From positions 3,762 through 67,761 of the IMG/VR virus record IMGVR_UViG_3300019776_000296: a DNA stretch of 64,000 nucleotides. One strand, 5' to 3'. The stretch comes from a virus. Each line of letters starts with the position of its first letter. Position 1 is the stretch's first letter. Below the pieces are notes generated by a model that saw only the letters and a list, made by a program, of their open reading frames with translations, had not been told where the DNA came from and ran no database searches. This document shows positions 47,853 to 59,897 of the stretch, one piece after another. Position numbers and translations under genes: made by a program.

Positions 47853-47878
47853 AATTTTTCCCTTCCCAATTGTGTTGT

Positions 47879-47960
47879 GCGAGATACAGTCTCGCGGCTG
47901 GCCTTGGCAGGCAAAAGGGAGAACAGCAATGCTGCTCTCCCCCCAACCGGCCAAGCACGG
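47879..47960 (-). ncRNA. Long-hairpin processing element LH1
   Basis: UUGGCCGG-UU-GGGGGGAGAGCAGC/GCUGUUCUCCCUUU-UG-CCUGCCAA, then a GCGAGA/UCUCGC hairpin. Confidence 0.55.
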
Positions 47961-48146
47961 TTACTCGTTCAGCAGGTTCTCCGCACGCTCAAGCTCTTCA
48001 AGCTCAGTCATGGCCGCAGCCAATTGCACTGCGCGAGAATTGATTTCGCGCTTCAGCGTTTCGATCCTCTGCTTCTTTGCACGCATCTGCTGATCCAGCA
48101 TCACGCGCAACTGGGCTACCGAATAGCCACCAATGTTCTTAACCAT
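47961..48146 (-). CDS. Small coiled-coil protein
   Basis: SD GAGAGG before ATG at 48146. Confidence 0.6.
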   Translation of the reverse strand: MVKNIGGYSVAQLRVMLDQQMRAKKQRIETLKREINSRAVQLAAAMTELEELERAENLLNE

Positions 48147-48435
48147 TCGGGAACCTCTCGTTGATGACTGCACCGATCTTGCTGGCAAGCCTGGTGGCTG
48201 CCTCGACTTCCTGTAAAGCTCTGTGCAACCAACCATTGGCCGCACTCAGTTCATCGATTAACTCCTCAAACGTCATGTGTTCCAACGTCATTCACCTTCC
48301 GTGTAATGCATCATGGGGCAGTTCAGCGAACCAGGCGTGTGGTAGTAGCCGCACAGATCGTGGTAGTTGGCAGCATCATCGTCTGCCACATCCCACCGGC
48401 CACCAGTTTCTAGTGCCCAGTTGTACTGGTGATCG

Positions 48436-48846
48436 TCATTCCACATAGCTTGTGCCCCAACCACTTGCCTCGACATTCCAGTCATCAGCAGTCATCACGG
48501 CCAAGCCAATCAGCGGCCCTTCATCACCGAACTCCTCAGAGAAACGGCGAAACCTGTTGGCACGCTTGATGTTCACCGGGCACAACAGTTCGTTAGCTGG
48601 CATCTGATACAGCTTCACCTCACCCTCCAGCACATCATCCAAGATGATGTAGTGGAAGTCAGACGTGGTAGCCACAATGGCACGCTTCATGCCATTGAGA
48701 GGCGAAAACTCCAGCGGCTCAAGCTCTTTGTAGCAATCGCCAACTCTGAAGTTCAGGTCGATCCACGTCATCTCGCCGCGTTCACGGCTGGTGACCCACT
48801 GCACTTTTCTACCATCTTCGAATTCGATGGTGATAGTTGCACTCAT
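48436..48846 (-). CDS. Hypothetical protein
   Basis: ACACAAGGGAAGAGG leader before ATG at 48846. Confidence 0.65.
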   Translation of the reverse strand: MSATITIEFEDGRKVQWVTSRERGEMTWIDLNFRVGDCYKELEPLEFSPLNGMKRAIVATTSDFHYIILDDVLEGEVKLYQMPANELLCPVNIKRANRFRRFSEEFGDEGPLIGLAVMTADDWNVEASGWGTSYVE

Positions 48847-48896
48847 ACGTCCTCTTCCCTTGTGTTGTGTTGTGCCCCAACAGAATTGCTGGGACA

Positions 48897-48963
48897 GCGT
48901 GTGCATGGCGGGAGTCGAACCCGCAGCACCAGGACGAATCCTGTTGCAGCCCAATGCATGCAC
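48897..48963 (-). ncRNA. tRNA-like element TLE1
   Basis: GUGCAUG/CAUGCAC acceptor; GCGGG-UUCGACU-CCCGC T-arm; D region reduced to CAUUGGGC; tail ACGC. Confidence 0.8.
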
Positions 48964-48971
48964 CCCCGGCG

Positions 48972-50051
48972 TTAGCCGATAGCGATCAGTTCAGGACGAT
49001 CCAGAACCTTCGCCACCGCAGTCAGCATGGTGCTGTCAGCGGCTGCGAATTCACCACGGATGGCGCGGTCATAGACCCGCTCCAACCGCGACACCGAACG
49101 AACGGGTGCGTAGTGATGCTGGTAGGTATTGAAAGCCTGCACAGCACCAAACACGGTGCCCTTCCACTGCTCCGACATTGGATCGGACATGTAGACGGCA
49201 TCGATTGCCTCCCTACGGTTTTCGGTCTTGGTGACCTTCGCCTTGGTTGAACCTTCCGGCGCGGGAGGTTCGATGATGTCCAGCACCTCAATCCATTTGG
49301 GGCGCGACAGCTTGATGCCCAACAACTCGTGGACGTAGTCGGTCATGTCATTGGCCGACTTGTCCAGAATTGAAAGTGCCTGCCGCACACCGGAAATGGT
49401 GTCAACGGACATCGACTGAGACGTGTGCTTGACCTTGAACTGCCGGTTAGCAGCCCGTGCCTCTGCCTTCAGTGCGGTGAACATGTTGTCGCACTTCAGG
49501 ATTCGATTGAAGGCACTGTAGCTAGTAGCTATGGAGCCATCCATCGATGTTGTGCAGAGGAGGAACGGCCAGAAATCCAGGCCGCTCCTGCCGTCGTGCA
49601 TCGTTTCCTCAAGACCGATCTCGACGGCAGCCTGTGCGCCGTTCTTCAGGGTCAGTGCCGACAGGACTCTTAGCGTGTCCTGCAACACATTTGAGATGTA
49701 ACGAATGAGCCACGTCTTGTAGTCATGGATACGGTAGGACGATTTGTGCCTACCCAGTTCCGTGCCATCGTCGGAACGCACAATGCCTTGGGCACCATGT
49801 GTCACAACAACTTTCACCGGAGTCATCACGCCGTCCTTGCCAATCGGGATGTAGATGTCTGCATCCTTCTTGCTGCACGGGATGAAGTTCCCGGTGGGAA
49901 CTGAGATCGCTTCGAAGTTGAACAGCAGTCGCTCGACTTCGCCTACCGGGATCGGGCCAGGGAACGTCGGGAGTGACCCGTCTGTCTGTCCGATCCAACC
50001 GTTGCGCTTCTCAGTGTTGCCAATGATTGCGCGTGCGATTTGTGTACCCAC
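48972..50051 (-). CDS. DUF932-family protein
   Basis: GIVRSDDGTELG...Y, PFLLCTTSMDGS, RILKCDNMF, GTVFGAVQAFNTYQHH motifs; likely GTG start at 50051. Confidence 0.8.
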   Translation of the reverse strand: MGTQIARAIIGNTEKRNGWIGQTDGSLPTFPGPIPVGEVERLLFNFEAISVPTGNFIPCSKKDADIYIPIGKDGVMTPVKVVVTHGAQGIVRSDDGTELGRHKSSYRIHDYKTWLIRYISNVLQDTLRVLSALTLKNGAQAAVEIGLEETMHDGRSGLDFWPFLLCTTSMDGSIATSYSAFNRILKCDNMFTALKAEARAANRQFKVKHTSQSMSVDTISGVRQALSILDKSANDMTDYVHELLGIKLSRPKWIEVLDIIEPPAPEGSTKAKVTKTENRREAIDAVYMSDPMSEQWKGTVFGAVQAFNTYQHHYAPVRSVSRLERVYDRAIRGEFAAADSTMLTAVAKVLDRPELIAIG

Positions 50052-50082
50052 TTTAGTGGATTCCCTTCTCTTCCTTGTGTTT

Positions 50083-50190
50083 TGGTGCAAACCCTGCACC
50101 GGGGGTACTGCAACTGGCGACTGAGCCAGCAGGACACGGCACCGTGCTGTCACCACGGTGCCGTGCTACAACCCGCTCAGTCATACCCCC
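50083..50190 (-). ncRNA. Long-hairpin processing element LH2
   Basis: GACUGAGC...GCACGGCACCGUG/CACGGUGCCGUGU...GCUCAGUC, then a GGUGCA/UGCACC hairpin. Confidence 0.6.
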
Positions 50191-50255
50191 AATTTACAGA
50201 GGGGGTGAGTCTTGCTCAGACGAGCAACACTCAAGGGTTGTTGTGGGACAACGGA

Positions 50256-50888
50256 TTACGCCTCTTCGATGTTGTCGATGTTGTAATCCTCGTAGTACGA
50301 GATATCGATTTTGTCGTAGATGTAATCCGACAGGTTGTTGTCGATCTCTTCTCGCGCATTGTCTTCCGACGTTGCCTCGACTTCGACCTCAACAACGTAG
50401 GTGACGTTCACGACAGCAGTGAAAGATCGCTTAATCCCTTCCAGGCCAAGCTCTTCCATCACCTCGCTGAGTTCTTTGCGCTTGTCGTCATCATCCAAAT
50501 GGGTGACGGCCCACTCAGCGAGTGCATCCTGGGCATCTCGCTTGAAAGCGTTGAACTGATCTTCCAAGTTAGAGCACCTACGATTCGCGCTTTGGTAGCT
50601 GATCCGTTCTGCGCCAACAGCTTCCACGAGCAACTGGCTCACACCAGTCAGTGTCATGGGAGTGTTGGTGCTGTCCAAACGGATTCTCCAATCCGTTTCT
50701 TGATCAGCGCGAACTGGTTGCACCATCTTCGCGCTGCTGTTGAAGACGTAGGTCATAACGAGAGAGTTATGGGTGTCGGTCTTACCCGTCCAGATACCAA
50801 ACTCCTCTTCGCCCCTCCATGAGGTGCGAGCCAACTCGACTCCAGCGACAGCATTTTCGACCAGATTGGCGAAAGTGATTGTCTCCAC
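50256..50888 (-). CDS. Hypothetical protein with acidic C-terminus
   Basis: 210 aa; SD GAAGGGA; GTG start. Confidence 0.7.
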   Translation of the reverse strand: METITFANLVENAVAGVELARTSWRGEEEFGIWTGKTDTHNSLVMTYVFNSSAKMVQPVRADQETDWRIRLDSTNTPMTLTGVSQLLVEAVGAERISYQSANRRCSNLEDQFNAFKRDAQDALAEWAVTHLDDDDKRKELSEVMEELGLEGIKRSFTAVVNVTYVVEVEVEATSEDNAREEIDNNLSDYIYDKIDISYYEDYNIDNIEEA

Positions 50889-50940
50889 GGTGATTTCCCT
50901 TCATTGTGTGCCGCAATTGAACCCGCTTGCGGTGAGCGGT

Positions 50941-51014
50941 ACTGCTGTTGACTATCTGAGCCAACAAGAAAGCGACAGTGCGAAACATGCACTGCCGCAA
51001 TCCAATCGGTTCAG
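50941..51014 (-). ncRNA. Long-hairpin processing element LH3
   Basis: CUGAACCGAU...GCGGCAGUGC/GCACUGUCGC...UGUUGGCUCAG; the 3' arm can refold as UGUUGGCU/AGUCAACA. Confidence 0.55.
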
Positions 51015-51215
51015 CTAGCGGAGTCGATCACGGAACAGTGCGTGCCACCTGATCCACTCCTCTAAGCCTCTTGCATCCCACAACGGCATGCCATCGATGA
51101 CGCTATGCGTCGGCGGCGGCGTGCCATCGTAACGTCTGCGCCAGTTCGCAACTGCCGCAGGAGTAACACCCAGGACATCCGCGATATGGGCACCGCCCCA
51201 AAGCATTTCGCTCAT
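51015..51215 (-). CDS. Small HTH DNA-binding protein (excisionase/MerR-like)
   Basis: AHIADVLGVTPAAVANWRRR...P.P...PLW. Confidence 0.8.
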   Translation of the reverse strand: MSEMLWGGAHIADVLGVTPAAVANWRRRYDGTPPPTHSVIDGMPLWDARGLEEWIRWHALFRDRLR

Positions 51216-51439
51216 GGCTGCGCCCAACCAACACATCTGGTTGTTACCGGATTGCACTGCACCGGGCCGTTAGTCCACCCTCCGTAGTAGCCGGGGATAT
51301 TCCAGGTGTCCTGCAACTGCCCGTTCCACGGAGCAGGCTGACAGCCACTCTGGTTCATCACCCCCTGGCACGGAGAAGCAGAACTGACCGGCGCACAAAC
51401 AAACGCCAAAAGCATTGCAACACAAACGATTACACGCAT
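51212..51439 (-). CDS. Small secreted Cys-containing protein
   Basis: Signal peptide MRVIVCVAMLLAFVCAPVSSA; four Cys in the mature part. Confidence 0.65.
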   Translation of the reverse strand: MRVIVCVAMLLAFVCAPVSSASPCQGVMNQSGCQPAPWNGQLQDTWNIPGYYGGWTNGPVQCNPVTTRCVGWAQP

Positions 51440-51594
51440 CAGTAACCCACCTCATCAAGCAACGCTTCCGCTTTGCGGATCAGGTACTGGATCGCCTCAC
51501 GCTCGTCTGCGCTGTTCCCGTTGCGCGACATCTCCCTGACATCGTCAAGGGCTGTACGCAAAGAGATCAATGCATCTTCGCTGACTTCCTCCAT
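51439..51594 (-). CDS. Small hypothetical protein (51 aa, below ORF-track cutoff)
   Basis: MEEVSEDALISLR...; SD GGAAGGG; stop overlaps the next ATG. Confidence 0.6.
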   Translation of the reverse strand: MEEVSEDALISLRTALDDVREMSRNGNSADEREAIQYLIRKAEALLDEVGY

Positions 51595-51644
51595 GATCTT
51601 CCCTTCCAATTATGTTGCGCCACACCATGATTGGTATGACATCA

Positions 51645-51712
51645 ACGTGTGCCAACTGGGAGTCGAACCCAGAGCAATCAACCCGAAAGTTGTTGCAGCC
51701 CAATGCAAGCAC
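51645..51712 (-). ncRNA. tRNA-like element TLE2
   Basis: Imperfect GUGCUUG/UUGGCAC acceptor; CUGGG-UUCGACU-CCCAG; CAUUGGGC; tail ACGU. Confidence 0.72.
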
Positions 51713-51719
51713 CCAATGA

Positions 51720-52247
51720 CTAGACCCGACGCGGCTCAGCCGAATCGATCCAGTCCAACCGCCACGGGAACAAATCCCGGTAGCAGTCAGCGCACACATC
51801 AAACTTCACACGATGCGAGGCATGCGTGACGTAGATGATGTGGTCAACCTGTAACTCGTAACGATCACACGGATCGCACTTGTCACCACAGTTCATGCAG
51901 ACCAGGTAGTCGGCATCGAACTGAATTTCGTTGGGAGTCTTACTCATTCATTCACCTCCCTTCGACTTGATCATGTTGGCAACAGCCAGAGCCAGCTTCA
52001 CTGGCCCTTCCTTGACTGTCATCAGATGAAGACCTGACTCGTGGTCAATCCACCAATGCCCGTTGTCGGACAAGCGAATTCGGTGATCTGGATTCTCCAG
52101 GTCAGCCTCGCCACGATGAGCAGCACTCCACACCAGCAGCACCGGATCGCCAGTGCCACCGTTGTCACGCACCGGCCTGCAATACAGGCCATGCTGCTGA
52201 CGCAACAGATGGGTGGTGTTCATCAGGATGTTCAAATCGTTTCTCAT
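51720..52247 (-). CDS. Two hypothetical genes (51948-52247 and Cys-rich 51720-51947)
   Basis: SDs present; adjacent stop and start. Confidence 0.6.
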
Positions 52248-52293
52248 TGGTTCCCTTCCAATTGTGTTGCACCCCAACGGTGTTGGGGTATCA

Positions 52294-52362
52294 ACGTGTG
52301 CATGGTGGGAGTCGAACCCACAGCAAAAACTTTTGAAAGTCATTGCAGCCCAATGCATGCAC
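52294..52362 (-). ncRNA. tRNA-like element TLE3
   Basis: GUGCAUG/CAUGCAC; GUGGG-UUCGACU-CCCAC; CAUUGGGC; tail ACGU. Confidence 0.8.
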
Positions 52363-52368
52363 TACCAC

Positions 52369-52859
52369 CTAGTCGGGATCGCGACGAGGCGGCTCACCAG
52401 CCCACTCAGCAGGAGTCATGCTCCACCTCCACGCCAAAGGGTTAGGAGGCAGGTCACAGCCCTGCACAGGGCCAAGCCGTACCGCCTCATCCTGACAGGC
52501 AAGGCAGCACGGATTCCCTTGTGGGCCATACAGTCTCGCAAACAATGAATTCATCTTGCGAGCCATCAGTTGCTCCGCGAGGTGACTGCGTGATGGATCA
52601 GTTCAGCCAATCGCGTTGCGTCACACCAGTATCTGTGAACATCCTCCGCAGCACGCTGCTCGTAGCCGACGTGCATGATGCGAAAGCCATCGTCCAGGTC
52701 ATTGACGGCATCCCAGATGACTGCCGTCTCGTACTTGACCTTGGTGTCCACATACCAGGGAGGCAGAGCGATTGTCGAAACAGTCACTGTGCCAATGGAT
52801 TCCAGTTCAAACTCGTTGTGCCGAATCTTGACCGGCATAACGGATTCGTAATCAAACAT
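52369..52859 (-). CDS. Two coupled hypothetical genes (52566-52859, 52369-52566)
   Basis: SD GAAGGGAAG; TGATG coupling. Confidence 0.6.
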
Positions 52860-52899
52860 GGTGTGTGCTTCCCTTCACTGTGTTGTGTATTGCATTGCT

Positions 52900-53324
52900 G
52901 CACAACGGAATTCAATTCGGACAATCGAAAAGCCTTGGAAACTGTGAAGTTCCAAGGTTGTTATAACCCACTGCCGTCGCGAGACAGGGGGGGTCGGACT
53001 CACGAATCCGGCTTCCGGTATGGCAACCGTCAACCACAGGTCGAGGTGGGTAGGAAGCTGGGCTAACTACCCGCCCCGAATTGGTGACGGCAGACATAGT
53101 CCACCCCCTGGTTAGGTGGCCTAACTACCACCTGGAAGTAGACAGACTGATCCCCTAAATCGAATGGCGAAATTTTCGAATCCCGTTGCGCCGGTTGTCG
53201 ATTCAACCGTGACCGGGCACGCGCACCGCATGCCCAGACATGGACGAACCGAATCACGTTGTGCCACAAGAGAATTGAAATGTGGTGGGGCGCAACCACT
53301 TTCGCGGCACGCCCCACCACCACG
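52900..53324 (-). ncRNA. Candidate multi-stem structured RNA region
   Basis: ~425-nt gap with several strong stems and possible pseudoknots (see findings). Confidence 0.4.
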
Positions 53325-53525
53325 TCAGCACCTAGCGGTATCACCAGAGATGTTGTGCGACAACGCATTCCGTGTTACCGCCTGTGAAAGGTGGTGGCAC
53401 AGTTCATACGTTGCCTCATACAACGCTTCAGAAGTCGCGTCACCATCTGAGGTGACGTGAGCGTCAGCGTATCCCTGGTGGCATTCGATGGCACGATTGA
53501 GCGCATCGATGAGTGCCTGAGACAT
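53325..53525 (-). CDS. Hypothetical protein
   Basis: ACACAAGGGAGAGAAC leader. Confidence 0.65.
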   Translation of the reverse strand: MSQALIDALNRAIECHQGYADAHVTSDGDATSEALYEATYELCHHLSQAVTRNALSHNISGDTARC

Positions 53526-53565
53526 GTTCTCTCCCTTGTGTTTTCAACTGCCCCAACATGGGACA

Positions 53566-53634
53566 TGGTGTGCCGCAGTGGAATTGAACCACCGTCACCC
53601 TGAAGGGTGATACGCACCAATTGCGTTGCGGCAC
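53566..53634 (-). ncRNA. tRNA-like element TLE4 (cloverleaf, ACCA end)
   Basis: GUGCCGCA/UGCGGCAC; ACGCA-AUUGG-UGCGU; UCACCC-UUCA-GGGUGA; GUGG-UUCAAUU-CCAC; ACCA. Confidence 0.8.
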
Positions 53635-53641
53635 TACACGA

Positions 53642-54040: not shown

Positions 54041-54116
54041 TTCAGATTCCCTATCATGTGTTGTGTTGTGCCACACCAGGATTGGTGCAGCCTGCTCCAG
54101 CCGGATGGCCGGGGCA

Positions 54117-54180
54117 TTGTGGACTGTGGGACGTTTGAAGCCCTACCCCACAACAGCCGAAAGCTGTTGCGGCACAGTCC
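54117..54180 (-). ncRNA. tRNA-like element TLE5
   Basis: GGACUGUG/CACAGUCC; single long arm; GGGC-UUCAAAC-GUCC; ACAA. Confidence 0.75.
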
Positions 54181-54195
54181 ATTCGAGATGTAGTG

Positions 54196-54513
54196 CTAGA
54201 TGCGGTACTGGCTACCGGCTTCGAAATCGCCTGCCAGCCAACGGATTACGGTCTCCCGCTTACGGGCCGTCTTGCCGTCGAGCATCGTCCACTCGCCACC
54301 AGACCAGCGGTCTGCGCCGGATGGCCTGACGTGCAACCATGCGGCAGTGATGCCGCACCGGCTGCTGTAGACAACCGTCACCCGGTATCGCGCCAGCTTT
54401 GTGGTCTGGTCGAAGGTGACCTCCATGCCGCCACGGAATTCGGTTGTGTCCCAACCGTTTTCGTTGGCGGTGCTGTTGATCATGGCCGGGGTGAAGTTAG
54501 CCAATGCACTCAT
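54196..54513 (-). CDS. Hypothetical protein
   Basis: SD GGGAG before ATG at 54513. Confidence 0.65.
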   Translation of the reverse strand: MSALANFTPAMINSTANENGWDTTEFRGGMEVTFDQTTKLARYRVTVVYSSRCGITAAWLHVRPSGADRWSGGEWTMLDGKTARKRETVIRWLAGDFEAGSQYRI

Positions 54514-54571
54514 TTCTCTTGTCTCCCATGCGTTTTGAATCATCAACTGCCACACCGGAATTGGTGCGGCA

Positions 54572-54646
54572 TGGTGTGGCTGGAGGAATCGAACCTCACC
54601 AGCATGACGCTGGCACCTCACCCCAAACACGTTGGGGCGCAACCAC
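54572..54646 (-). ncRNA. tRNA-like element TLE6 (ACCA end)
   Basis: GUGGUUG/CAGCCAC; two internal arms; GAGG-UUCGAUU-CCUC; ACCA. Confidence 0.8.
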
Positions 54647-54656
54647 ATTCGAAGAG

Positions 54657-55379
54657 CTACTTGCTCTTCTTCTCCTTCTTCACGGAGAACAGCACAGACT
54701 TCCGACCGTAGATGCACAAACCGCAACGGGCACAAGCACTTCCGCGCTGATCGATCAGCGGCAGTGCCCCGTTATTCTCCGGACACCTTGTGGCACCAGG
54801 GAATTCGGCCTGAGCATCAGCGAAAGTCTCGCCAACGTAGGCGACGTTAATGCCTTGCGCCGCAAGGTGTTTCGCCGCTGTGATGTTGTCGCGGTCACCG
54901 CTGAAGTACAGCCCAAGGTTGGGCAGGTTCAGCTTGTGCAGGTACACGGCAGAACCGGGCACCCTGGTGTACACCCAGAACTGTGTGTCCTGGTGTGCCG
55001 CAACAACTTTCGACCAGGCAATCATGTAGTCGGTGCTGAAGAAGTCACCGTCCCAATGGATTCGGAAAAGCTTTGGCGCAGAACGCTTCTCGCATTCGGC
55101 CTCGAAATCCGTGATCATCTGGTCGAGCATGTCGAACATCTCGCTGCGTGAAATGCCTTGCAGTGCATCCCAATTGCGCTTCAGCAGTGCGGAGACTGCG
55201 GGGCGCAACCGTTCAAGCTTGCCTGCGTAGCAGATCAGCGCACAGAACGCGGTCTGTGCAATGCACGAGAACGCTTCACCGGAGGGGATGCCAAAGCTGT
55301 TGGCTACCAACGGCTTTGTGCCAGCCTTGTTCACGGCAGAAGCGACCTTAGTGTCATTACTGCGCTGGAGATTGGACAT
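54657..55379 (-). CDS. GP88-like (radical-SAM-like Cys cluster) protein
   Basis: SFGIPSG...C...C...CYA, FRIHWDGDFFS, FWVYTR, CARCGLC motifs. Confidence 0.75.
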   Translation of the reverse strand: MSNLQRSNDTKVASAVNKAGTKPLVANSFGIPSGEAFSCIAQTAFCALICYAGKLERLRPAVSALLKRNWDALQGISRSEMFDMLDQMITDFEAECEKRSAPKLFRIHWDGDFFSTDYMIAWSKVVAAHQDTQFWVYTRVPGSAVYLHKLNLPNLGLYFSGDRDNITAAKHLAAQGINVAYVGETFADAQAEFPGATRCPENNGALPLIDQRGSACARCGLCIYGRKSVLFSVKKEKKSK

Positions 55380-55439
55380 GTTGTCTTACCTCTTCCCTTG
55401 TGTGTATCTTCAACTGCCGCAACGGGATTCGTTACAGCA

Positions 55440-55497
55440 TGGTGTGCCGCAGAGGTTTCGAACCTCAGCGTCACGCTAGCCAAAAGGCTTGCGGCAC
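55440..55497 (-). ncRNA. tRNA-like element TLE7 (58-nt miniature cloverleaf, ACCA end)
   Basis: GUGCCGCA AGCC-UUUU-GGCU AGCG-UGA-CGCU GAGG-UUCGAAA-CCUC UGCGGCAC ACCA. Confidence 0.85.
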
Positions 55498-55509
55498 TAG
55501 TGGTTTGGC

Positions 55510-55836
55510 TTAGAGGTAGGTGAATTCGTAACGGATGCCACGAGATTCGGTGTCGTCCAAGCCGGTGTTGATGTAGAACTCGATCAGCCTGTCGTCATCG
55601 ATGGCAGCCGAAAAGTATTCGGCCACAGTGCTTTTCGTACCGGACAGGTAGTTCATGCACGTCCACAGCAGCGACTCGTAGTCGCTGGTGTAGCTGTGTT
55701 CGTAATACCTTGCGCCGCAATCGATGTCGATGCCACAGGCGAACTCTTGCATGGTCACGATGCCACGCCGCACGGTGTCGTGCAGCGCAACAACGTAGCC
55801 AAGGGCATCGTTGCCGTGAAGAATCTTTGTGATCAT
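55510..55836 (-). CDS. Hypothetical protein
   Basis: AAACACAAGGGAGAGAAC leader. Confidence 0.65.
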   Translation of the reverse strand: MITKILHGNDALGYVVALHDTVRRGIVTMQEFACGIDIDCGARYYEHSYTSDYESLLWTCMNYLSGTKSTVAEYFSAAIDDDRLIEFYINTGLDDTESRGIRYEFTYL

Positions 55837-55879
55837 CGTTCTCTCCCTTGTGTTTACAACCTGCACCCGGTCGGATGCA

Positions 55880-55960
55880 TTGTGCGACTGGAGGATTCGA
55901 ACCTCACCGCCACCAGGACGGCACCTCACTGCATCACGAGATGTGTTGCAGCGCAGTCGC
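55880..55960 (-). ncRNA. tRNA-like element TLE8
   Basis: GCGACUG/CAGUCGC; two arms with an AGGU linker as in TLE6; GAGG-UUCGAAU-CCUC; ACAA. Confidence 0.8.
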
Positions 55961-55967
55961 TTTCGAG

Positions 55968-56210
55968 CTAGACCACCTTGCCGTTACGGATGTTGGCGTA
56001 CCACTTGCGGTTCGTCCACGGGTTCGGCCCGACGATCACGTCAGACGACGTGAGTTGCGGGTCATCGATGCCGTAGAACGTGCCGCGATTGTTGATCGCC
56101 GACGTGTCTTCCAGACGCACGGAATCCGGTGCGTAGCTTACGAATTCGCGGAATGCCTTCTTGCTTGCGAACTCGCCGCCGGATGCGTCGGTAGCGTAAA
56201 GGTTTGACAT
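55968..56210 (-). CDS. Hypothetical protein
   Basis: SD GGGAG; SKKAFRE...VGPNPW..RKWYA motif. Confidence 0.7.
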   Translation of the reverse strand: MSNLYATDASGGEFASKKAFREFVSYAPDSVRLEDTSAINNRGTFYGIDDPQLTSSDVIVGPNPWTNRKWYANIRNGKVV

Positions 56211-56231
56211 GGTATCTCCCAATTGTGTTGC

Positions 56232-56314
56232 GCCACATACCGTGTGGCCCGGCCTGCCCAGTAAGGCAAGGACACAGCCAGACGAATCTGGCTGTGCCCC
56301 AACGTCACTGGACG
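56232..56314 (-). ncRNA. Long-hairpin processing element LH4
   Basis: CCAGUGA-CGUUG-GGGCACAGCCAGA-UUCG-UCUGGCUGUGUCC-UUGCC-UUACUGG. Confidence 0.7.
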
Positions 56315-56554
56315 TTACTTGCGTCGGAGAACAGGGTTGACGTTAGGCACATGTGCCACAACGATTTTCAGCTCCACGCAATACCCTTCAGGGCAAAGGG
56401 ATTGCATGTGGTCAACAGCGTTGCGAATGTGTAATGCGGTGTCGCGCTGCCGTTTTGCCACGCCGGTCATACCCTCACGCTCAGCCCGGTCTGCCTCGCA
56501 TTCAAATGCGACGACAGTGTCCATCGAATTGATGTGGATTGAGTACTCAGACAT
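56315..56554 (-). CDS. Hypothetical protein
   Basis: SD GGGAG before ATG at 56554. Confidence 0.65.
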   Translation of the reverse strand: MSEYSIHINSMDTVVAFECEADRAEREGMTGVAKRQRDTALHIRNAVDHMQSLCPEGYCVELKIVVAHVPNVNPVLRRK

Positions 56555-56601
56555 GTTGTCTCCCAATGTGATTCACTACTGCGCTACCAGGTAGCAGCGC
56601 A

Positions 56602-56667
56602 TGGTGGGTTGCCGGGGATCGAACCCGTCACAGTGTGAGCCGCCCGTAATACGTTGCGACACAACCC
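56602..56667 (-). ncRNA. tRNA-like element TLE9 (ACCA end)
   Basis: GGGUUGU/GCAACCC; CGGG-UUCGAUC-CCCG; ACCA. Confidence 0.78.
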
Positions 56668-56673
56668 ATTTTG

Positions 56674-56832
56674 TTACCGGCGTGCCCAGTCGAGCCACCA
56701 CAAGGTGGCCCACGAGTACGGCCCGATAAGCAGGACGAACAGTGCGCCGTTCCAGATCACAGCGAGGTTGGCAAGGCCAACGAACGCCGTAATGGCAAGC
56801 AGCACAACAAGTATCAACTTGAGTGTGTTCAT
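56674..56832 (-). CDS. Small membrane protein (52 aa, below ORF-track cutoff)
   Basis: MNTLKLILVVLLAITAFVGLANLAVIW...; SD GGAG. Confidence 0.6.
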   Translation of the reverse strand: MNTLKLILVVLLAITAFVGLANLAVIWNGALFVLLIGPYSWATLWWLDWARR

Positions 56833-56875
56833 CTTTCGTTTCTCCATCCTTACTGCTGCACCGTGATTCGATGCA

Positions 56876-56932
56876 TGGTGCTACTGCGGGAGTCGAACCC
56901 TTGCCGCCCGTAATACGTTGCGGCACAGTAGC
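56876..56932 (-). ncRNA. tRNA-like element TLE10 (ACCA end)
   Basis: GCUACUG/CAGUAGC; one arm UGCCGC/GCGGCA; GGG-UUCGACU-CCC; ACCA. Confidence 0.78.
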
Positions 56933-56940
56933 TTTCGAGA

Positions 56941-57240
56941 TTAGACGAGATCGTGGTGCAGGTACTCTTCGTCGTGCCCTTCACCGTCGAGGAACTGAAC
57001 CCGAATGCGGGTATCGATGGTCACCTTGCGGCTGTCGAGCAGGCTGAAAAGCGTTGCGGCACAGTCACTGTCGAGGTGGCTCTGGAAGATGACCCACTCA
57101 CGGTTGAAGTAGGCGATCTCGTGGTATTGCGTTGCCCCGTAACGTGATTCGGGGCTGCCTACCTGAATGAAGCTGTGCGACAACGCACGCTCCACACCAT
57201 CGACCACGACAGTTCCTGTGCTGATCTGTGTTGCCTTCAT
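56941..57240 (-). CDS. Hypothetical protein
   Basis: SD GGGAG before ATG at 57240. Confidence 0.65.
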   Translation of the reverse strand: MKATQISTGTVVVDGVERALSHSFIQVGSPESRYGATQYHEIAYFNREWVIFQSHLDSDCAATLFSLLDSRKVTIDTRIRVQFLDGEGHDEEYLHHDLV

Positions 57241-57261
57241 CTCTTGTCTCCCAACTACTTT

Positions 57262-57352
57262 CGCTGCATGCCGTGCAGCACGGTCTGCCAATGAGGCAAG
57301 GACACAGGCAGGTACATTGCTGTAACTGCCTGTGCCCCAACGCCATTGGACG
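57262..57352 (-). ncRNA. Long-hairpin processing element LH5
   Basis: CCAAUGG-CGUUG-GGGCACAGGCAG...CUGCCUGUGUCC-UUGCC-UCAUUGG; covaries with LH4. Confidence 0.7.
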
Positions 57353-57592
57353 TTAGAGATAGCTTGCGGAGTAGACGAACCCGTCGCTGAACGCATCACC
57401 GGCGACCTTGCCATGCTTGCGTTCGTAGTTCTGTTCGTCGCGCTCCAGGTCATACCCGTCACGCCACGCCGCATTCACACCAGCTTTGAAGTGCCGCAAC
57501 AGGTTTCGGTCTTCCAGGTACTGGGCGTAGCCGCCGTCGTCACCGGGGAATTCCTCCAGCATGCGCTGCACATCTGCGATTGTGTATGCCAT
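57353..57592 (-). CDS. Hypothetical protein
   Basis: ACACAAAGGGAG leader. Confidence 0.65.
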   Translation of the reverse strand: MAYTIADVQRMLEEFPGDDGGYAQYLEDRNLLRHFKAGVNAAWRDGYDLERDEQNYERKHGKVAGDAFSDGFVYSASYL

Positions 57593-57614
57593 TTCCGTTA
57601 TCTCCCTTTGTGTT

Positions 57615-57683
57615 TGGCTTGTCTCTTCAGTGGGTAGGTAGCCAACCTGTCCCAGACCCGTTGCAACGCAACGGGTTTCGACA
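57615..57683 (-). ncRNA. Type II hammerhead ribozyme HH1 (canonical core, GUC site)
   Basis: UGUC GAAA CCCGUUGC-GUU-GCAACGGG UC|UGGG..AGGU-UGGCU-ACCU..CCCA CUGAAGA GACA AGCCA; loop I UGGCU pairs with the 3' AGCCA. Confidence 0.92.
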
Positions 57684-57687
57684 TTAT

Positions 57688-57975
57688 CTAGTGGCCGCAA
57701 TCCTCAGCGGGTTGCAGCCAGACGCTCACCATGTCGCGGTGGATGCCCTCCGTGCTGCCGTTGTCAACCGTCAACATGCCGTTGACGAAAAGGCTTGCAC
57801 TGGAAGGGATTCCGAACATCTCCAGCACCGTGGTGACAACGTCATTGGCAGACATGGCCTGTCCCGCAACGCCGCCAATGATGAAGGACGGCGTGTCGAG
57901 AATGGTTTTCTGCCAACCGTTTTCGATCACGGTGCGAAGGATGCCCACGACATGGTTTCCGTAGTAAGTGGTCAT
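57688..57975 (-). CDS. Hypothetical protein
   Basis: CACAAAGGGAGAGAAC leader. Confidence 0.65.
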   Translation of the reverse strand: MTTYYGNHVVGILRTVIENGWQKTILDTPSFIIGGVAGQAMSANDVVTTVLEMFGIPSSASLFVNGMLTVDNGSTEGIHRDMVSVWLQPAEDCGH

Positions 57976-57997
57976 TTCTGTTCTCTCCCTTTGTGAT

Positions 57998-58066
57998 TGG
58001 CTTGTCTCGTCAGTACGGCGGGAGCCACCCAACCGCAGTCCCGGTGCGTTGCACCGGGATTCGACA
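57998..58066 (-). ncRNA. Type II hammerhead ribozyme HH2 (variant U15.1-A16.1, GAC site)
   Basis: UGUC GAAU CCCGGUGC-AAC-GCACCGGG AC|UGCGG-U-UGGG-UGGCU-CCCG-CCGUA CUGACGA GACA AGCCA. Confidence 0.85.
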
Positions 58067-58070
58067 GCTA

Positions 58071-58400
58071 CTAGCTGTAGTAGCGTCCGACCACAACCCG
58101 CTCGTAATCCGGTGTGGTGCAACCGAATTCGATGGGCCACCGCACCAGGACACCGCTGAAGAACGAGTCGGTCTGGATGCCGTCCCAACGCTGCAACGAA
58201 TCCGGCACGCCAGCCGCGAAATGCGTTGGCACATAGCTGAATTCGTTCACGTCGTAGAAGCTGCCCAGGTACTGGAAGATACGCGGCGAGAAACGATCCT
58301 CGCCCTCGACGTAGTCGAACCAGTGCTGCTCAGCGACCGGCACCTGATCAACCGAAATCAGTTCGCGGGGAACATTATTGGTGATGATGGTGATGGACAT
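58071..58400 (-). CDS. Hypothetical protein
   Basis: ACACAAAGGGAGAGAAC leader; WDGIQTDSFFSGVLV motif. Confidence 0.7.
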   Translation of the reverse strand: MSITIITNNVPRELISVDQVPVAEQHWFDYVEGEDRFSPRIFQYLGSFYDVNEFSYVPTHFAAGVPDSLQRWDGIQTDSFFSGVLVRWPIEFGCTTPDYERVVVGRYYS

Positions 58401-58447
58401 TGTTCTCTCCCTTTGTGTTTGGGTCTGCCTCACCGGACGGTGAAGCA

Positions 58448-58505
58448 TTGTGCGACTGCGGGATTCGAACCCACGCTGCCCGGTAATGCGTTGCAGCACA
58501 GTCGC
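58448..58505 (-). ncRNA. tRNA-like element TLE11
   Basis: GCGACUG/CAGUCGC; arm UGCUGC/GCAGCG; UGGG-UUCGAAU-CCCG; ACAA. Confidence 0.78.
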
Positions 58506-58512
58506 TTTCGAT

Positions 58513-58836
58513 CTAGGCCGAACGTGTCACCAGGTACAGCCTGCCCTGGTGGCGCGAGGTGGTGACGGAGTACTTAACCGGCGGGATTGTCCACTGCCCG
58601 TTGGCATGCCACGCAATTGGCGTGGCGTAGCTGTAGACAGCGAAGAAATCCGTTGCCGCAGAAGCGGTTTCGAAGTCGCCGTGGTACTCGTCAGGCAGCT
58701 TGCCGACGCTGGTCGGATGCGACCAACCACCACCAGTGAAGATGGGGCGAGTCGAACCGAAAACCGTTCCGTTGCAATTGAATTCGCGACGGTCACGGAT
58801 CAGCGTGGGGATGCTGCTGAGGGTTGCCTTGATCAT
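58513..58836 (-). CDS. Hypothetical protein
   Basis: SD GGGAGG; VYSYATPIAW...YSVTTSRHQ motif. Confidence 0.7.
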   Translation of the reverse strand: MIKATLSSIPTLIRDRREFNCNGTVFGSTRPIFTGGGWSHPTSVGKLPDEYHGDFETASAATDFFAVYSYATPIAWHANGQWTIPPVKYSVTTSRHQGRLYLVTRSA

Positions 58837-58858
58837 TTCTCTTACCTCCCAATAGGTT

Positions 58859-58927
58859 TGGCTTGTCTCGTCAGTACGCCGGGAGCCACCCGAACGTAGT
58901 CCCGTTGCTAGGCAACGGGATTCGACA
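58859..58927 (-). ncRNA. Type II hammerhead ribozyme HH3 (variant U15.1-A16.1, GAC site)
   Basis: UGUC GAAU CCCGUUGC-CUA-GCAACGGG AC|UACG-UU-CGGG-UGGCU-CCCG-G-CGUA CUGACGA GACA AGCCA. Confidence 0.85.
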
Positions 58928-58929
58928 AA

Positions 58930-59334
58930 CTAGTCGAGCTTCAGATCAGCGGGGAACGTGAACCCGCCGACATCACTCAAGCAGTCGGACATGAAGATCA
59001 GCGAGTCGAGGTCATCGAAGTCGGGATGGTCACTGAAGTCGAAATCGATTATCTCGCTTACGTTTTCGCCATCCGTGCTGTACCAGAAGTCATCGTCGCG
59101 GTCTGCTGTGGCGAGGTCGATATCCTGTTGGATACCTTGCATCTCATCCATTGCCGCGACGAAAGCCTCTGTGTGAGCAGTGATTTCGTTCTCGTCAACG
59201 TCGATCTCGTCTTCCTTGTAACCAACCAGCGTGACCAGTTCTTCGATGGCGAAGATTGCCGCCTGAAGGGCTGTCTCCCAACGCATTTCAGCAGTTGCTG
59301 GCATGCCGTTGATGTAGCCGCTGTTGTTGATCAT
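58930..59334 (-). CDS. Highly acidic protein (possible DNA mimic)
   Basis: 134 aa with 34 D/E versus 4 K/R by hand count; SD GGGAG. Confidence 0.7.
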   Translation of the reverse strand: MINNSGYINGMPATAEMRWETALQAAIFAIEELVTLVGYKEDEIDVDENEITAHTEAFVAAMDEMQGIQQDIDLATADRDDDFWYSTDGENVSEIIDFDFSDHPDFDDLDSLIFMSDCLSDVGGFTFPADLKLD

Positions 59335-59389
59335 GTTGTCTCCCAATGTGTTACACGGAACCGCCGTGCCGGTCTGCCTCAGTGAGGCA

Positions 59390-59449
59390 ACGTGGACTGT
59401 GGGACGTTCGAAGCCCTACTCCCCAACGAATTACGTTGGGGCACAGTCC
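59390..59449 (-). ncRNA. tRNA-like element TLE12
   Basis: GGACUGUG/CACAGUCC; CCCCAACG/CGUUGGGG arm; GGGC-UUCGAAC-GUCC; ACGU. Confidence 0.78.
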
Positions 59450-59461
59450 CTTTTGAACTAG

Positions 59462-59788
59462 TCAGCACCTAGCGTCGTGCCAGCCTTGAGCGAGTTTCTC
59501 TGCTGCCGCAAGGGTTTTCACCGTGCGCTGGTGCAGAATGATTGTCTTGCCGTGATGCTTGCCTGCCACCTTGTTCTGACGGCGGCGTGCCTGTCGTCCG
59601 TACCGTGCATTCGGATCACCGAAATGCGCTGTGAGAGAGCGACTTTGGAGGTACTCACGGGCAGCCTTGGGGTCGCTGATACGTTCCAGCACGGTGAATG
59701 TCTCACCGCAGTAGATGATGTAATCGACGTTGTGCCCCTTGGCATCTCGCACAATGCCCTGGACGCGCCAGTTCAATGTGTTTGACAT
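59462..59788 (-). CDS. Hypothetical basic protein (first clear gene of the leftward region)
   Basis: AAACACAAAGGGAGAGAAC leader before ATG at 59788. Confidence 0.65.
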   Translation of the reverse strand: MSNTLNWRVQGIVRDAKGHNVDYIIYCGETFTVLERISDPKAAREYLQSRSLTAHFGDPNARYGRQARRRQNKVAGKHHGKTIILHQRTVKTLAAAEKLAQGWHDARC

Positions 59789-59820
59789 GTGTTCTCTCCC
59801 TTTGTGTTTGGGGTGGTTAC

Positions 59821-59897
59821 CTGCCGGGTAGCAGGACAGGAAACAGGGTGCATTGCTGCACCCTGTATCCCGCTCAGACACCCGAAAGTGCCCGAAA
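59821..59897 (-). ncRNA. Long-hairpin element LH6
   Basis: GCGGGA-U-ACAGGGUGCA-GCAA-UGCACCCUGU-U-UCCUGU, then UGCU-ACCC-GGCAG. Confidence 0.5.

What the first reader, a model, noticed from the sequence alone, without database searches (positions are those of the whole stretch)
47879..59897. An RNA-punctuated early operon: three interchangeable RNA-cutting devices occupy the same slot between genes
Seen: on the minus strand 21 intergenic gaps share one layout: stop codon, usually only a few nt, structured RNA, AC-rich leader (often AACACAA), GGGAG/GAAGGG SD, start codon. The structured slot holds a type II hammerhead (3 times), a tRNA-like element (12 times) or a long internally looped hairpin (6 times). 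From 53.3 to 59.9 kb every gene boundary has one, and the types are interspersed. Translationally coupled gene pairs lack them. Established: T7 cuts its early transcript with RNase III, mitochondria use tRNA punctuation, and hammerheads occur between phage genes. Inference: this phage mixes self-cleavage, RNase P/Z mimicry and dsRNase substrates as swappable cassettes that turn one long early transcript into separately stabilised mRNAs. Shared cassettes could also serve as recombination joints for shuffling anti-host genes. I know of no description of this mixed system but cannot search to confirm novelty.
Basis: partly seen in the sequence, partly recalled or inferred. Interest (0 to 1): 0.96.

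Follow-up and report, generated by a model that had tools for sequence, protein, structure and literature searches.

The report
Phage operon punctuated by tRNA mimics and ribozymes
An uncultured relative of the mycobacteriophages separates nearly every gene of one long operon with a folded RNA (a stripped-down tRNA look-alike, a self-cutting hammerhead or a long hairpin), which most likely marks where the long message is cut into protected single-gene pieces.

Summary
On the minus strand, 59.9 to 47.85 kb, I count 22 gaps (median 120 nt). They hold 12 anticodon-less tRNA mimics (TLEs), 3 type II hammerheads and 7 hairpin-type fillings, each followed by an AC-rich leader and a purine-rich ribosome site.

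The TLEs are far beyond chance: 10 strict hits on the operon strand, 0 on the other, 0.2 per shuffle. Their stems covary: 97.9% of cells paired, 9 of 11 pairs changed on both sides. A collinear relative (L335) keeps a TLE and a 29-pair hairpin at the same junctions through compensatory changes. Gene gains and losses there are bounded by cassettes.

New here: cluster A mycobacteriophages carry a TLE in the same operon. In L5 it spans 51,226-51,135. Published RNA-seq places about 90% of Pleft transcript ends at 51,140-51,190, with no tRNA-like fold mentioned.

Cleavage in this phage is not shown. No RNA run holds it, and two of the three hammerheads carry the weak U15.1-A16.1 core.

Hammerhead punctuation (Perreault 2011) and tRNA-like t-elements (plant mitochondria) are published. 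The mixed phage system was absent from my literature searches. Unpublished notes of this scan report it in other phage genomes (eight such notes were listed).

Verdict: a real new variant of a known kind; interest 0.78.

The parts
59393..59449 (-). TLE g01 (8-bp acceptor, one hairpin, T arm; ends A-C-G)
   Evidence: 28.7 bits
58862..58929 (-). Hammerhead type II, copy 1 (U15.1-A16.1, GAC triplet; predicted cut 3' of 58899)
   Evidence: (26.7 bits)
58451..58505 (-). TLE g03
   Evidence: seed of R1
58003..58066 (-). Hammerhead type II, copy 2 (U15.1-A16.1, GAC; predicted cut 3' of 58038)
   Evidence: (25.9 bits)
57620..57683 (-). Hammerhead type II, copy 3 (canonical A15.1-U16.1, GUC; predicted cut 3' of 57655)
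   Evidence: descriptor only; not listed by Rfam at E up to 10
57241..57352 (-). Long irregular hairpin gap g06 (about 25 pairs) plus a second hairpin
   Evidence: against g09: 23 pairs unchanged, 2 one-sided, 4 compensatory, 0 broken
56879..56932 (-). TLE g07 (T stem has one mismatch; ends ACCA)
   Evidence: seed of R1
56605..56667 (-). TLE g08 (extra arm; ends ACCA)
   Evidence: 25.2 bits
56211..56314 (-). Long irregular hairpin gap g09 (25 pairs) plus a second hairpin
55883..55960 (-). TLE g10 (with extra arm)
55443..55497 (-). TLE g11, miniature cloverleaf directly upstream of the GP88-family gene (ends ACCA)
   Evidence: 20.6 bits; L5 has a mini-TLE at the matching place
54575..54646 (-). 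TLE g12 (with extra arm; ends ACCA)
54120..54180 (-). TLE g13
   Evidence: 21.1 bits
53569..53634 (-). TLE g14 (ends ACCA)
   Evidence: 19.9 bits
52860..53324 (-). Gap g15: 17-pair hairpin right after the stop codon (about 53,320-53,282), then about 420 nt of structured non-coding sequence with a promoter-like site
52297..52362 (-). TLE g16
   Evidence: (tRNA 25.1 bits)
51648..51712 (-). TLE g17 (weakened acceptor stem)
   Evidence: (18.3 bits)
50889..51014 (-). Gap g18: 22-pair hairpin domain (its inner stem is followed by a T-rich run) plus a second hairpin
50052..50255 (-). Gap g19: several hairpins including a long interrupted one
   Evidence: relative L335 fills this slot with different hairpins
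48900..48963 (-). TLE g20 (the only one at Rfam's tRNA gathering score)
   Evidence: orthologue in L335 has 2 compensatory T-stem pairs
47853..47960 (-). Gap g21: 23-pair irregular hairpin plus a second hairpin
   Evidence: orthologue in L335: 20 pairs unchanged, 5 one-sided, 4 compensatory, 0 broken
59789..59900 (-). Gap g00: three hairpins and the leader before the first gene of the run

Best explanation
The run of about 25 small genes is transcribed as one or two long RNAs. The second unit may start in the 465-nt gap g15. Each structured slot is a processing signal.

The hammerheads cut themselves. This leaves stem III with a cyclic phosphate on the upstream RNA, and stem I with a 5'-OH at the head of a 62-nt leader on the downstream RNA.

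The tRNA mimics are recognised by the host's tRNA-end enzymes: RNase P at the 5' side, and/or RNase Z or 3' trimming after the discriminator. The downstream mRNA then begins with at most a few free nucleotides followed by a stable hairpin.

The 22-25-pair irregular hairpins are most likely cut by RNase III, or act as end-protecting stems.

The result is gene-sized mRNAs with structured, protected ends and a standard unstructured leader plus ribosome site. Because the cassettes and leaders repeat, they also serve as joints where genes are gained, lost or exchanged.

Shown: the folds, their slot equivalence, covariation, conservation at orthologous junctions, and cassette-bounded gene gains and losses.
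Inferred: every cleavage, the enzymes, the stabilisation and the early timing.
For: (1) Only RNA cutting is common to a hammerhead and a tRNA mimic, and both sit in the same slot: stop codon, a few nt, element, leader, SD.

(2) TLEs keep what tRNA-end enzymes read. They have an 11-12-bp acceptor/T stack and a UUCRANN loop. By reading the flanks printed, and for g17, position 1 is G, position 73 is A and position 74 is C in 12 of 12, and CCA is encoded in 5 of 12. They lack an anticodon loop (ARAGORN 0).

(3) RNA-level selection: 97.9% of cells paired, 9 of 11 pairs with changes on both sides, slid controls 33-40%. Strand bias is 10 to 0.

(4) Complementary design: 12 of 12 TLE 3' flanks start a hairpin of -8.4 to -18.0 kcal/mol within 0-3 nt. 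The 3 hammerhead flanks have none, apart from one weak -2.2 fold over the SD. From the cut sites, all three predicted hammerhead cuts leave a 62-nt leader.

(5) Relative L335 (the DUF932 protein matches at 85% in its best segment) keeps the TLE with 2 compensatory pairs and 0 broken. It keeps the g21 hairpin with 4 compensatory, 5 one-sided and 0 broken of 29 pairs at 73% identity.

(6) In phage L5 a TLE lies at 51,226-51,135 on the transcribed strand. Dedrick et al. 2017 (PMC5712189, sections 10-11 read) place about 90% of Pleft transcript ends at 51,140-51,190 and report processed species. A TLE on the same strand as the GP88 gene is present in 13 of 14 cluster-A-like IMG/VR loci and in 2 genome-contig loci, with 0 on the other strand.

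(7) Of 107 other phage type II hammerheads, 82 lie within 30 nt of a same-strand ORF stop. Perreault 2011 showed cleavage of clustered phage hammerheads in vitro.

(8) Only 3 promoter-like sites were found in 17.5 kb against 8.4 expected, and only two of them lie inside gaps.
Against: There are no RNA data for this phage.

Two of the three hammerheads carry U15.1-A16.1 with a GAC triplet. None of 107 other phage hammerheads has this, and it is reported to cleave only weakly. All Rfam hammerhead scores are below the gathering score, and the third copy is not listed at all.

An RNase P cut would leave the upstream mRNA with an unprotected 3' end a few nt after its stop codon. The nucleotide before most TLEs is A, not the U that I recall bacterial RNase P prefers.

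The L5 coverage fall lies inside the TLE rather than at its 5' edge. There the mimic may stay on the RNA as a 3' cap, and that RNA is toxic and appears to be needed for lytic growth, which hints at a role in trans.

The 5' halves of several TLEs, and some stems and leaders, contain an operator-like palindrome that is enriched in the window (102 matches against 16 expected). Part of the sequence conservation may therefore be selected at the DNA level.

g07 and g17 have imperfect stems.

The pair counts were made on an alignment fitted to the model and include 2 non-TLE rows.
Confidence: 0.6

Rival explanations
1. The tRNA mimics act mainly in trans. Once released, or kept at RNA 3' ends, they accumulate as stable tRNA look-alikes. 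These soak up or mislead a host factor that reads the top half of tRNA: RNase P, the CCA-adding enzyme, or tRNA-acceptor-targeting defence toxins. Cutting is only the way they are released.
For: The L5 RNA that ends in the TLE is the most abundant phage transcript and is stable. It is toxic to M. smegmatis and E. coli. A deletion that removes the first 32 nt of the TLE (51,195-51,407) could not be recovered. Twelve copies per transcript would give a high dose. A73-C74 is kept in 12 of 12 and ACCA in 5 of 12 (read).
Against: This does not explain why hammerheads and plain hairpins fill the same slot, why each TLE is followed by a 5' hairpin and a leader, or why the mimics sit exactly at gene borders. 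The L5 deletion also removes about 180 nt upstream of the TLE. No binding partner has been tested.
Confidence: 0.15
2. The folds are never cut at specific sites. They act as passive insulators: barriers to exonucleases and RNase E/J scanning, and spacers that uncouple the translation of neighbouring genes on an intact polycistron.
For: All gaps are strongly structured (-25 to -96 kcal/mol for the 93-204-nt gaps; -208.5 for the 465-nt g15). Two hammerheads have a weak core. The long hairpins are conserved as structure.
Against: A T loop, a G1-C72 pair, A73-C74 and an 11-12-bp stack are far more specific than a barrier needs. The hammerhead cores are otherwise intact, with loop-tail pairing (read). 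L5 RNA ends map to the TLE.
Confidence: 0.12
3. The elements are selected at the DNA level, as repressor-binding 'stoperator'-like sites and recombination joints. The RNA folds would then be by-products of palindromes.
For: The 13-nt palindrome is enriched (102 against 16.2 expected). It is arrayed at 61.1-63.5 kb and occurs, with up to 2 mismatches, in 13 of 22 gaps by my reading. Cluster A phages place stoperators right after their TLEs (read). Relatives differ by cassette-bounded gene gains and losses.
Against: A DNA site does not explain several features: the strand bias of 10 to 0, G-U pairs, compensatory changes that alter the sequence but keep the pairing, the T-loop consensus, or the hammerhead cores. 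It is plausible as an overlay but not as the sole cause.
Confidence: 0.06
4. The hairpin-type gaps, and perhaps the TLEs, are transcription terminators or attenuators. Each gene or small block would then be its own transcription unit.
For: Two hairpins are followed by T-rich runs (50,998-50,972 and 53,299-53,282). For L5 the authors read the RNA ends as termination.
Against: Terminator-like sites are fewer than chance (9 against 18.4) and promoter-like sites are scarce (3 against 8.4). TLEs and hammerheads lack T tails. The scan covers only sigma-70-type promoters, so this evidence is weak.
Confidence: 0.05

Closest known systems
Clustered hammerhead ribozymes flanking genes in prophages (Perreault et al. 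2011, PMC3088659; passages read)
   Same: Several type II hammerheads lie between co-directional phage genes. The authors proposed that they cut long transcripts into gene-length mRNAs and tested this in vitro. Natural U15.1-A16.1 variants are noted as weakly active.
   Different: Here hammerheads fill only 3 of 22 slots. The rest hold tRNA mimics and hairpins, so the ribozyme is one option among several.
Plant mitochondrial t-elements and the mitochondrial tRNA punctuation model (Forner et al. 2007, PMC1920247; abstract read)
   Same: tRNA-like folds without a decoding function sit at mRNA ends and are taken as signals for RNase P and/or RNase Z.
   Different: This is a bacteriophage operon, with 12 copies in 10.5 kb. 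Each is paired with a downstream 5' hairpin and a standard leader, and they are mixed with ribozymes.
Abundant stable non-coding RNA from Pleft of mycobacteriophages L5, D29 and StarStuff (Dedrick et al. 2017, PMC5712189; sections 10-11 read)
   Same: It lies in a homologous operon, which holds the GP88-family gene at 59% identity. A TLE lies where that RNA ends.
   Different: The paper reports no tRNA-like fold: a search for 'tRNA' gave 2 unrelated passages. L5 has one strong TLE plus one mini-TLE, whereas this phage has 12.
RNase III processing of the T7 early transcript (recalled, not checked in a call)
   Same: Irregular hairpins between early genes of one long transcript; the cuts leave stem remnants that protect the ends.
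   Different: Only 7 of 22 slots here are hairpin-type. No RNase III cut has been tested.
MALAT1-mascRNA 3'-end formation (recalled, not checked in a call)
   Same: A tRNA mimic inside a longer RNA directs RNase P and RNase Z cuts and defines the ends of the flanking RNA.
   Different: That system is eukaryotic and has a single copy.
YrlA-type bacterial Y RNAs with a tRNA-like domain (Chen et al. 2014, PMC4201824; passages read)
   Same: tRNA mimicry by a non-coding RNA, also found in some mycobacteriophages.
   Different: YrlA lies beside a Ro60 gene and has a Ro-binding stem. No TROVE/Ro60 gene is found in this record, and no YrlA-type family appears in the Rfam scan.

Membership tests
Hammerhead ribozyme type II (Rfam RF02276) | Core CUGANGA and GAA boxes with three stems, open end in stem II | tested here: met
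   3 of 3 copies by descriptor. Rfam alignments confirm two of them.
Hammerhead ribozyme type II (Rfam RF02276) | A15.1-U16.1 pair and an NUH cleavage triplet | tested here: not met
   Met in 1 of 3 (57620-57683, GUC). The other two have U15.1-A16.1 and GAC. 0 of 107 other phage copies have this. The variant is published as weakly active.
Hammerhead ribozyme type II (Rfam RF02276) | Score at or above Rfam's gathering score (37 bits) | tested here: not met
   26.7 and 25.9 bits. The third copy is not listed at E up to 10.
Hammerhead ribozyme type II (Rfam RF02276) | Self-cleavage | not testable with these tools
   Needs in vitro transcription or end-specific RNA-seq.
tRNA gene (Rfam RF00005 / ARAGORN) | Cloverleaf with a 7-nt anticodon loop; detected by tRNA finders | tested here: not met
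   ARAGORN finds 0. 1 of 12 reaches the gathering score. The middle arms end in tri- or tetraloops or are doubled.
tRNA-like processing signal (t-element type) | Acceptor stem stacked on a T arm (about 12 bp) with a T-loop consensus, in the sense strand of an mRNA precursor | tested here: met
   10 of 12 strictly and 2 of 12 with one mismatch; all on the operon strand.
tRNA-like processing signal (t-element type) | RNA ends generated at the element by RNase P and/or RNase Z | not testable with these tools
   No RNA run holds the window. The only indirect support is the published L5 ends at 51,140-51,190 inside its TLE.
RNase III processing site (T7 early type) | Irregular hairpin of about two helical turns between genes | tested here: met
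   g06 (by alifold with g09) and g09 about 25 pairs, g21 23, g18 22, g15 first hairpin 17; g19 and g00 are multi-branched.
RNase III processing site (T7 early type) | Staggered double-strand cut by RNase III | not testable with these tools
   Needs an enzyme assay or end mapping.
YrlA Y RNA | Encoded next to a Ro60 (TROVE) gene | tested here: not met
   No PF05731 match in the 67.8-kb record.

The most novel reading that the evidence does not exclude
The tRNA mimics are more than cut marks. They are a phage-made pool of stable 'top-half tRNAs', released twelve per transcript. The pool titrates a host factor that reads tRNA acceptor ends, for example RNase P, the CCA-adding enzyme, or an acceptor-end-modifying defence toxin of mycobacteria. 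This would explain why the TLE-bearing Pleft RNA of L5 is toxic and appears to be required for lytic growth. Punctuation and host takeover would then be done by the same element.
Probability: 0.15. Interest if true: 0.92.

Novelty: new variant of a known kind. Interest (0 to 1): 0.78.

Why it matters
What bacterial and phage hammerheads are for has been open since they were found in thousands of genomes. A ribozyme that shares one slot with substrates of host tRNA-processing enzymes and with long hairpins points to mRNA punctuation as the shared job, and makes that directly testable.

The link to L5, D29 and StarStuff gives a culturable system. The most abundant early RNA of these well-studied mycobacteriophages ends in a tRNA mimic that the paper reporting it does not mention, and that I found in none of my literature searches. 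That RNA is toxic to the host, and a deletion reaching into the mimic could not be recovered.

If confirmed, the cassettes would be compact, host-enzyme-driven parts for splitting synthetic operons in actinobacteria. They would also explain how small accessory genes are shuffled between phages.

Tried and rejected
Searches for close relatives mostly failed.
- The GP88-family protein alone found nothing in IMG/VR.
- As a 10-sequence profile it found only matches of 60% identity or less in IMG/VR, metagenome contigs and genome contigs.
- Its 83-88% relatives (P0001-P0003) lie in Logan/ENA assemblies that I could not fetch.
- The 107-aa protein gave one 38% match (L336) with no elements. The 95-aa protein gave none.

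Pattern scans of IMG/VR gave no relatives.
- The 16-nt leader gave 34 single, unrelated hits.
- The T-arm/ACCA pattern hit mostly real tRNAs: 103 of 120 matches lie inside ARAGORN tRNAs, and I did not follow the 17 others.

Model R1 is too sequence-specific. It gave 1 hit at E = 1 in 55 loci and missed the cluster A TLEs that the descriptor finds.

MAFFT alignments A1, A2, A3 and A5 mis-registered the acceptor strands and were not used for pair counts.

The 8-nt motif GCNGCAAC is enriched throughout the window (58 against 15.9 expected) and so is not specific to the cassettes.

RNA evidence: no RNA holder is listed for the window. The one DNA run holding part of it (X1) is kept as contigs, which cannot show RNA ends. 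Only 40 of 610 letter differences were shown there, so covariation could not be read from that run.

Rfam at E up to 10 over 46.5-61.5 kb lists no twister, pistol, hatchet or other ribozyme for the hairpin gaps.

The reading of the TLEs as real tRNAs, integration sites or recent DNA repeats was rejected. There is no anticodon loop, there are 12 copies, and at least 7 different acceptor stems keep their pairing.

The right-end alignment and probe table of Dedrick 2017, and the variant lists of Perreault 2011, may bear on the L5 end position and on the U15.1-A16.1 variant.

Not-in-print claims rest on searches of the held library only.

Full report
WHAT THE WINDOW IS
The window is bases 3,762-67,761 of a 67.8-kb IMG/VR virus record. 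The plus strand carries portal, capsid, tape-measure-sized ORFs, a lysin-like peptidase, an ERF recombinase, a DnaB helicase and an exonuclease.

From about 59.9 kb down to 47.0 kb the minus strand carries about 25 small genes. Only two of them have a Pfam family. One is a GP88-family protein (PF17338), whose best match in the phage collection is 59.7% identical and lies in cluster A mycobacteriophages. The other is a DUF932 protein. Of the 20 operon proteins scanned against PHROGs, 8 matched a family, all of unknown function, and 12 matched none.

The layout (structural genes rightward, a leftward block at the right end) recalls the L5 right arm. Calling the block 'early' is an inference from that analogy.

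THE OBSERVATION
I read the minus strand, fixed the starts and stops against the ORF list and folded each gap. I count 22 gaps of 93-465 nt, with a median of 120.
- Twelve hold a tRNA-like element (TLE).
- Three hold a type II hammerhead.
- Seven hold hairpins. Five of these include an irregular stem of 17-25 pairs (g06 by alifold with g09), and two (g00, g19) are multi-branched.

Every boundary between 59.9 and 53.3 kb has an element, and the types are interspersed. Overlapping or abutting gene pairs have none. All 22 gaps end in an SD-like purine run. ACACAA lies in 14 of 22 leaders and a CACA[AT] motif in 17 of 22. My extra gap is g18.

ARE THE tRNA MIMICS REAL?
ARAGORN calls no tRNA in the window. 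Rfam's tRNA model reaches its threshold once, at 29.2 against 29 bits. The tRNA or tRNA-Sec models touch 4 of the 12 at E below 1.

I wrote a descriptor: a T loop of the form UUCRANN, a 4-5-bp T stem, an abutting 6-8-bp acceptor stem, and a stack of 11-13 bp. It finds 10 on the minus strand, all between 48.9 and 59.45 kb, and none on the plus strand. Fifty shuffles gave 0.2 on average and at most 2. g07 and g17 each fail by one mismatch.

A covariance model built from four copies, with only the acceptor and T stems as structure, recovered the other eight among the top 14 hits in the whole window. On the model-fitted alignment of the 14 hits in the operon, 97.9% of cells pair. The figure is 70.7% after shuffling and 33-40% when the partners are slid. 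Nine of 11 pairs change on both sides. That alignment leans towards the model and includes two non-TLE rows, but the margin is large.

The middle of the element varies: one hairpin, two hairpins, or a D-like segment plus a tetraloop arm. No copy has a 7-nt anticodon loop. By reading the flanks printed, and for g17, position 1 is G, the discriminator is A and the next base is C in 12 of 12. Five copies go on to a full encoded CCA. These are mimics of the top half of tRNA, not tRNA genes.

THE HAMMERHEADS
My descriptor finds three on the minus strand and none on the plus strand. Rfam aligns two of them end to end to Hammerhead_II at 26.7 and 25.9 bits, below its cut-off of 37. It does not list the third, which is the one with the canonical A15.1-U16.1 pair and GUC triplet.

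The other two carry U15.1-A16.1 and GAC. None of 107 type II hammerheads that I found in the other IMG/VR loci fetched (L003-L119) has that pair. Perreault et al. 2011 report that a natural U15.1-A16.1 representative cleaves, but less efficiently.

In all three copies the loop of stem I can pair with five bases just after stem II (read). From the predicted cleavage sites, each cut would leave a 62-nt leader and a 31-33-nt tail on the upstream RNA.

ONE SLOT, THREE FILLINGS
The part downstream of the structured element differs by element type in a way that fits cutting. All 12 TLEs are followed, after 0-3 free bases, by a hairpin of -8.4 to -18.0 kcal/mol. The three hammerheads are followed by no comparable hairpin. 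After a hammerhead cut, stem I itself heads the downstream RNA. After a cut behind the TLE discriminator, the extra hairpin would do so.

Gaps g06 and g09 (long hairpins) and gap g01 (TLE) show similar 3' hairpin modules by eye. The three-way alignment supports this only weakly: 2 unchanged, 2 compensatory and 2 broken pairs. g06 and g09 themselves differ by 4 compensatory and 2 one-sided changes, with no broken pair.

RELATIVES
A 13.4-kb IMG/VR contig (L335) is collinear with 50.3-39.5 kb of the window at 67-80% nucleotide identity in the larger collinear blocks. Its DUF932 protein matches at 85% in its best segment.
- At the junction after that gene it has a TLE with two T-stem pairs changed on both sides and none broken.
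- At the next structured junction it keeps the 29-pair hairpin with 4 compensatory and 5 one-sided changes and none broken, at 73% identity.
- The slot before the gene is filled by different hairpins.
- It has two extra genes, each with its own hairpin cassette and a further copy of the AC-rich leader/SD (read; the second insertion is bracketed by leader matches).

One lake-water DNA run (X1) holds a relative mostly 80-95% alike. Its contigs join paralogous cassettes:
- TLE g08 to TLE g07;
- hammerhead g05 to hammerhead g04;
- slot g12 filled by a g01-type TLE;
- the stop codon of one gene joined through a TLE to the leader of a gene 3.9 kb away.
The matching sides are short (23-45 letters), so these joints are suggestive rather than firm.

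I found no case of a TLE replaced by a hammerhead at one orthologous junction.

CLUSTER A MYCOBACTERIOPHAGES
Scanning the loci fetched through the GP88 protein, 13 of 14 cluster-A-like IMG/VR loci, plus a Mycolicibacterium rhodesiae contig and one further genome contig, carry a TLE on the same strand as the gene and none on the other strand. It mostly lies about 0.5-1.7 kb upstream of the gene; in one locus (L165) the only hit lies downstream. Acceptor and T stems differ between the phages while keeping their pairing.

In L5 the element spans 51,226-51,135, with the T arm at 51,157-51,141. The rest of the L5 genome has no other such hit on that strand. It does have a mini-TLE with a one-base bulge directly upstream of gene 88, the same place as g11 here. 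Rfam sees only a sub-threshold tRNA-Sec match there.

Dedrick et al. 2017 (sections 10 and 11 read) report the following.
- The transcription start of Pleft is at 51,672.
- The most abundant phage RNA is a stable species of about 500 nt.
- About 90% of transcripts end at 51,140-51,190.
- Smaller processed species exist.
- The region is toxic in E. coli and M. smegmatis.
- The deletion 51,195-51,407, which takes away the first 32 nt of the TLE, could not be recovered, whereas 51,407-51,619 could be deleted.

A search of that paper for 'tRNA' gave two unrelated passages. A 2025 preprint on D29 does not mention a tRNA-like fold either. The published ends therefore fall inside a tRNA mimic that the paper does not report. 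The interval fits an end at or near the 3' side of the mimic better than an RNase P cut at its 5' edge, but the resolution is too low to decide.

MECHANISM
I take the elements as processing signals, with confidence 0.6:
- self-cleavage at the hammerheads;
- recognition of the TLEs by the host tRNA-end machinery, on one or both sides;
- RNase III, or simple end protection, at the long hairpins.
This would yield gene-sized mRNAs with structured ends and a standard leader.

The rivals are a role of the released mimics in trans (0.15), passive insulation without specific cuts (0.12), DNA-level operator or recombination sites (0.06 as the sole cause, more likely as an overlay) and termination (0.05).

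The DNA overlay is a real possibility. A 13-nt palindrome occurs 102 times in the window against 16 expected. Its perfect copies are arrayed at 61.1-63.5 kb, and it or its half lies inside several TLE 5' halves, hammerhead stem III loops and leaders. In L5 a stoperator follows each TLE (read).

WHAT IS KNOWN
Published:
- hammerhead punctuation of phage polycistrons (Perreault 2011);
- t-elements and tRNA punctuation in mitochondria (Forner 2007, abstract read);
- RNase III sites in T7 early RNA and MALAT1-mascRNA (both recalled, not checked).

Nine searches of the held library gave no paper describing tRNA mimics as gene separators in a phage operon, mixed with ribozymes or not, and none on a tRNA-like fold in the cluster A Pleft RNA.

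This scan's own unpublished notes report the same mixed design in other phage genomes (one search listed eight such notes). I did not test those. I therefore class this as a new variant of a known kind: real, well supported at the sequence level, and untested at the RNA level.

Noticed in passing
window 61,100-63,530, both strands (also 60,093-60,105): A 13-nt palindrome (GTTGYGNCRCAAC) occurs 102 times at up to 2 mismatches against 16 expected. Perfect copies are arrayed in pairs through a 2.4-kb apparently non-coding stretch upstream of the operon. One copy lies just downstream of a promoter-like site at 60,172-60,145. It looks like an operator, iteron or centromere array. The same motif or its half sits inside TLE 5' halves and leaders.
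   Followed up: partly
L234 (phage L5 NC_001335), record 51,226-51,135 and about 50,470-50,420, minus strand: L5 has a 92-nt tRNA-like element where the abundant Pleft non-coding RNA ends. It has a second miniature one directly upstream of gene 88. Neither is annotated in the record, and neither is mentioned in the passages I read.
   Followed up: partly
window 52,860-53,280, minus strand: A non-coding stretch of about 420 nt inside the operon folds strongly (-208 kcal/mol for the whole gap). It holds a promoter-like site at 53,201-53,172 and may start a second transcription unit or encode a separate RNA.
   Followed up: no
window 57,027-57,068, minus strand: Inside the coding sequence of the 99-aa gene there is a 24.5-bit match to the TLE model. 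It consists of the operator-like 5' half only, with no T arm.
   Followed up: no
L003-L119 (other IMG/VR contigs): Of 107 type II hammerheads in unrelated phage contigs, 82 start within 30 nt after a same-strand ORF stop, and all 107 keep A15.1-U16.1. The slot right after the stop codon seems to be general for phage hammerheads.
   Followed up: partly
L341, L348, L349, L357, L385, L386, L388, L394, L395, L412, L417, L427, L430, L436, L437, L440, L441: Seventeen matches to a T-arm plus ACCA pattern lie outside any ARAGORN tRNA in other phage contigs. They are possible further tRNA mimics.
   Followed up: no
window 46,880-46,960: A G+C-rich hairpin with T runs on both sides lies between the convergent plus-strand block and the minus-strand operon. 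It looks like a two-way terminator and is conserved in L335 at about 4,390-4,430.
   Followed up: no
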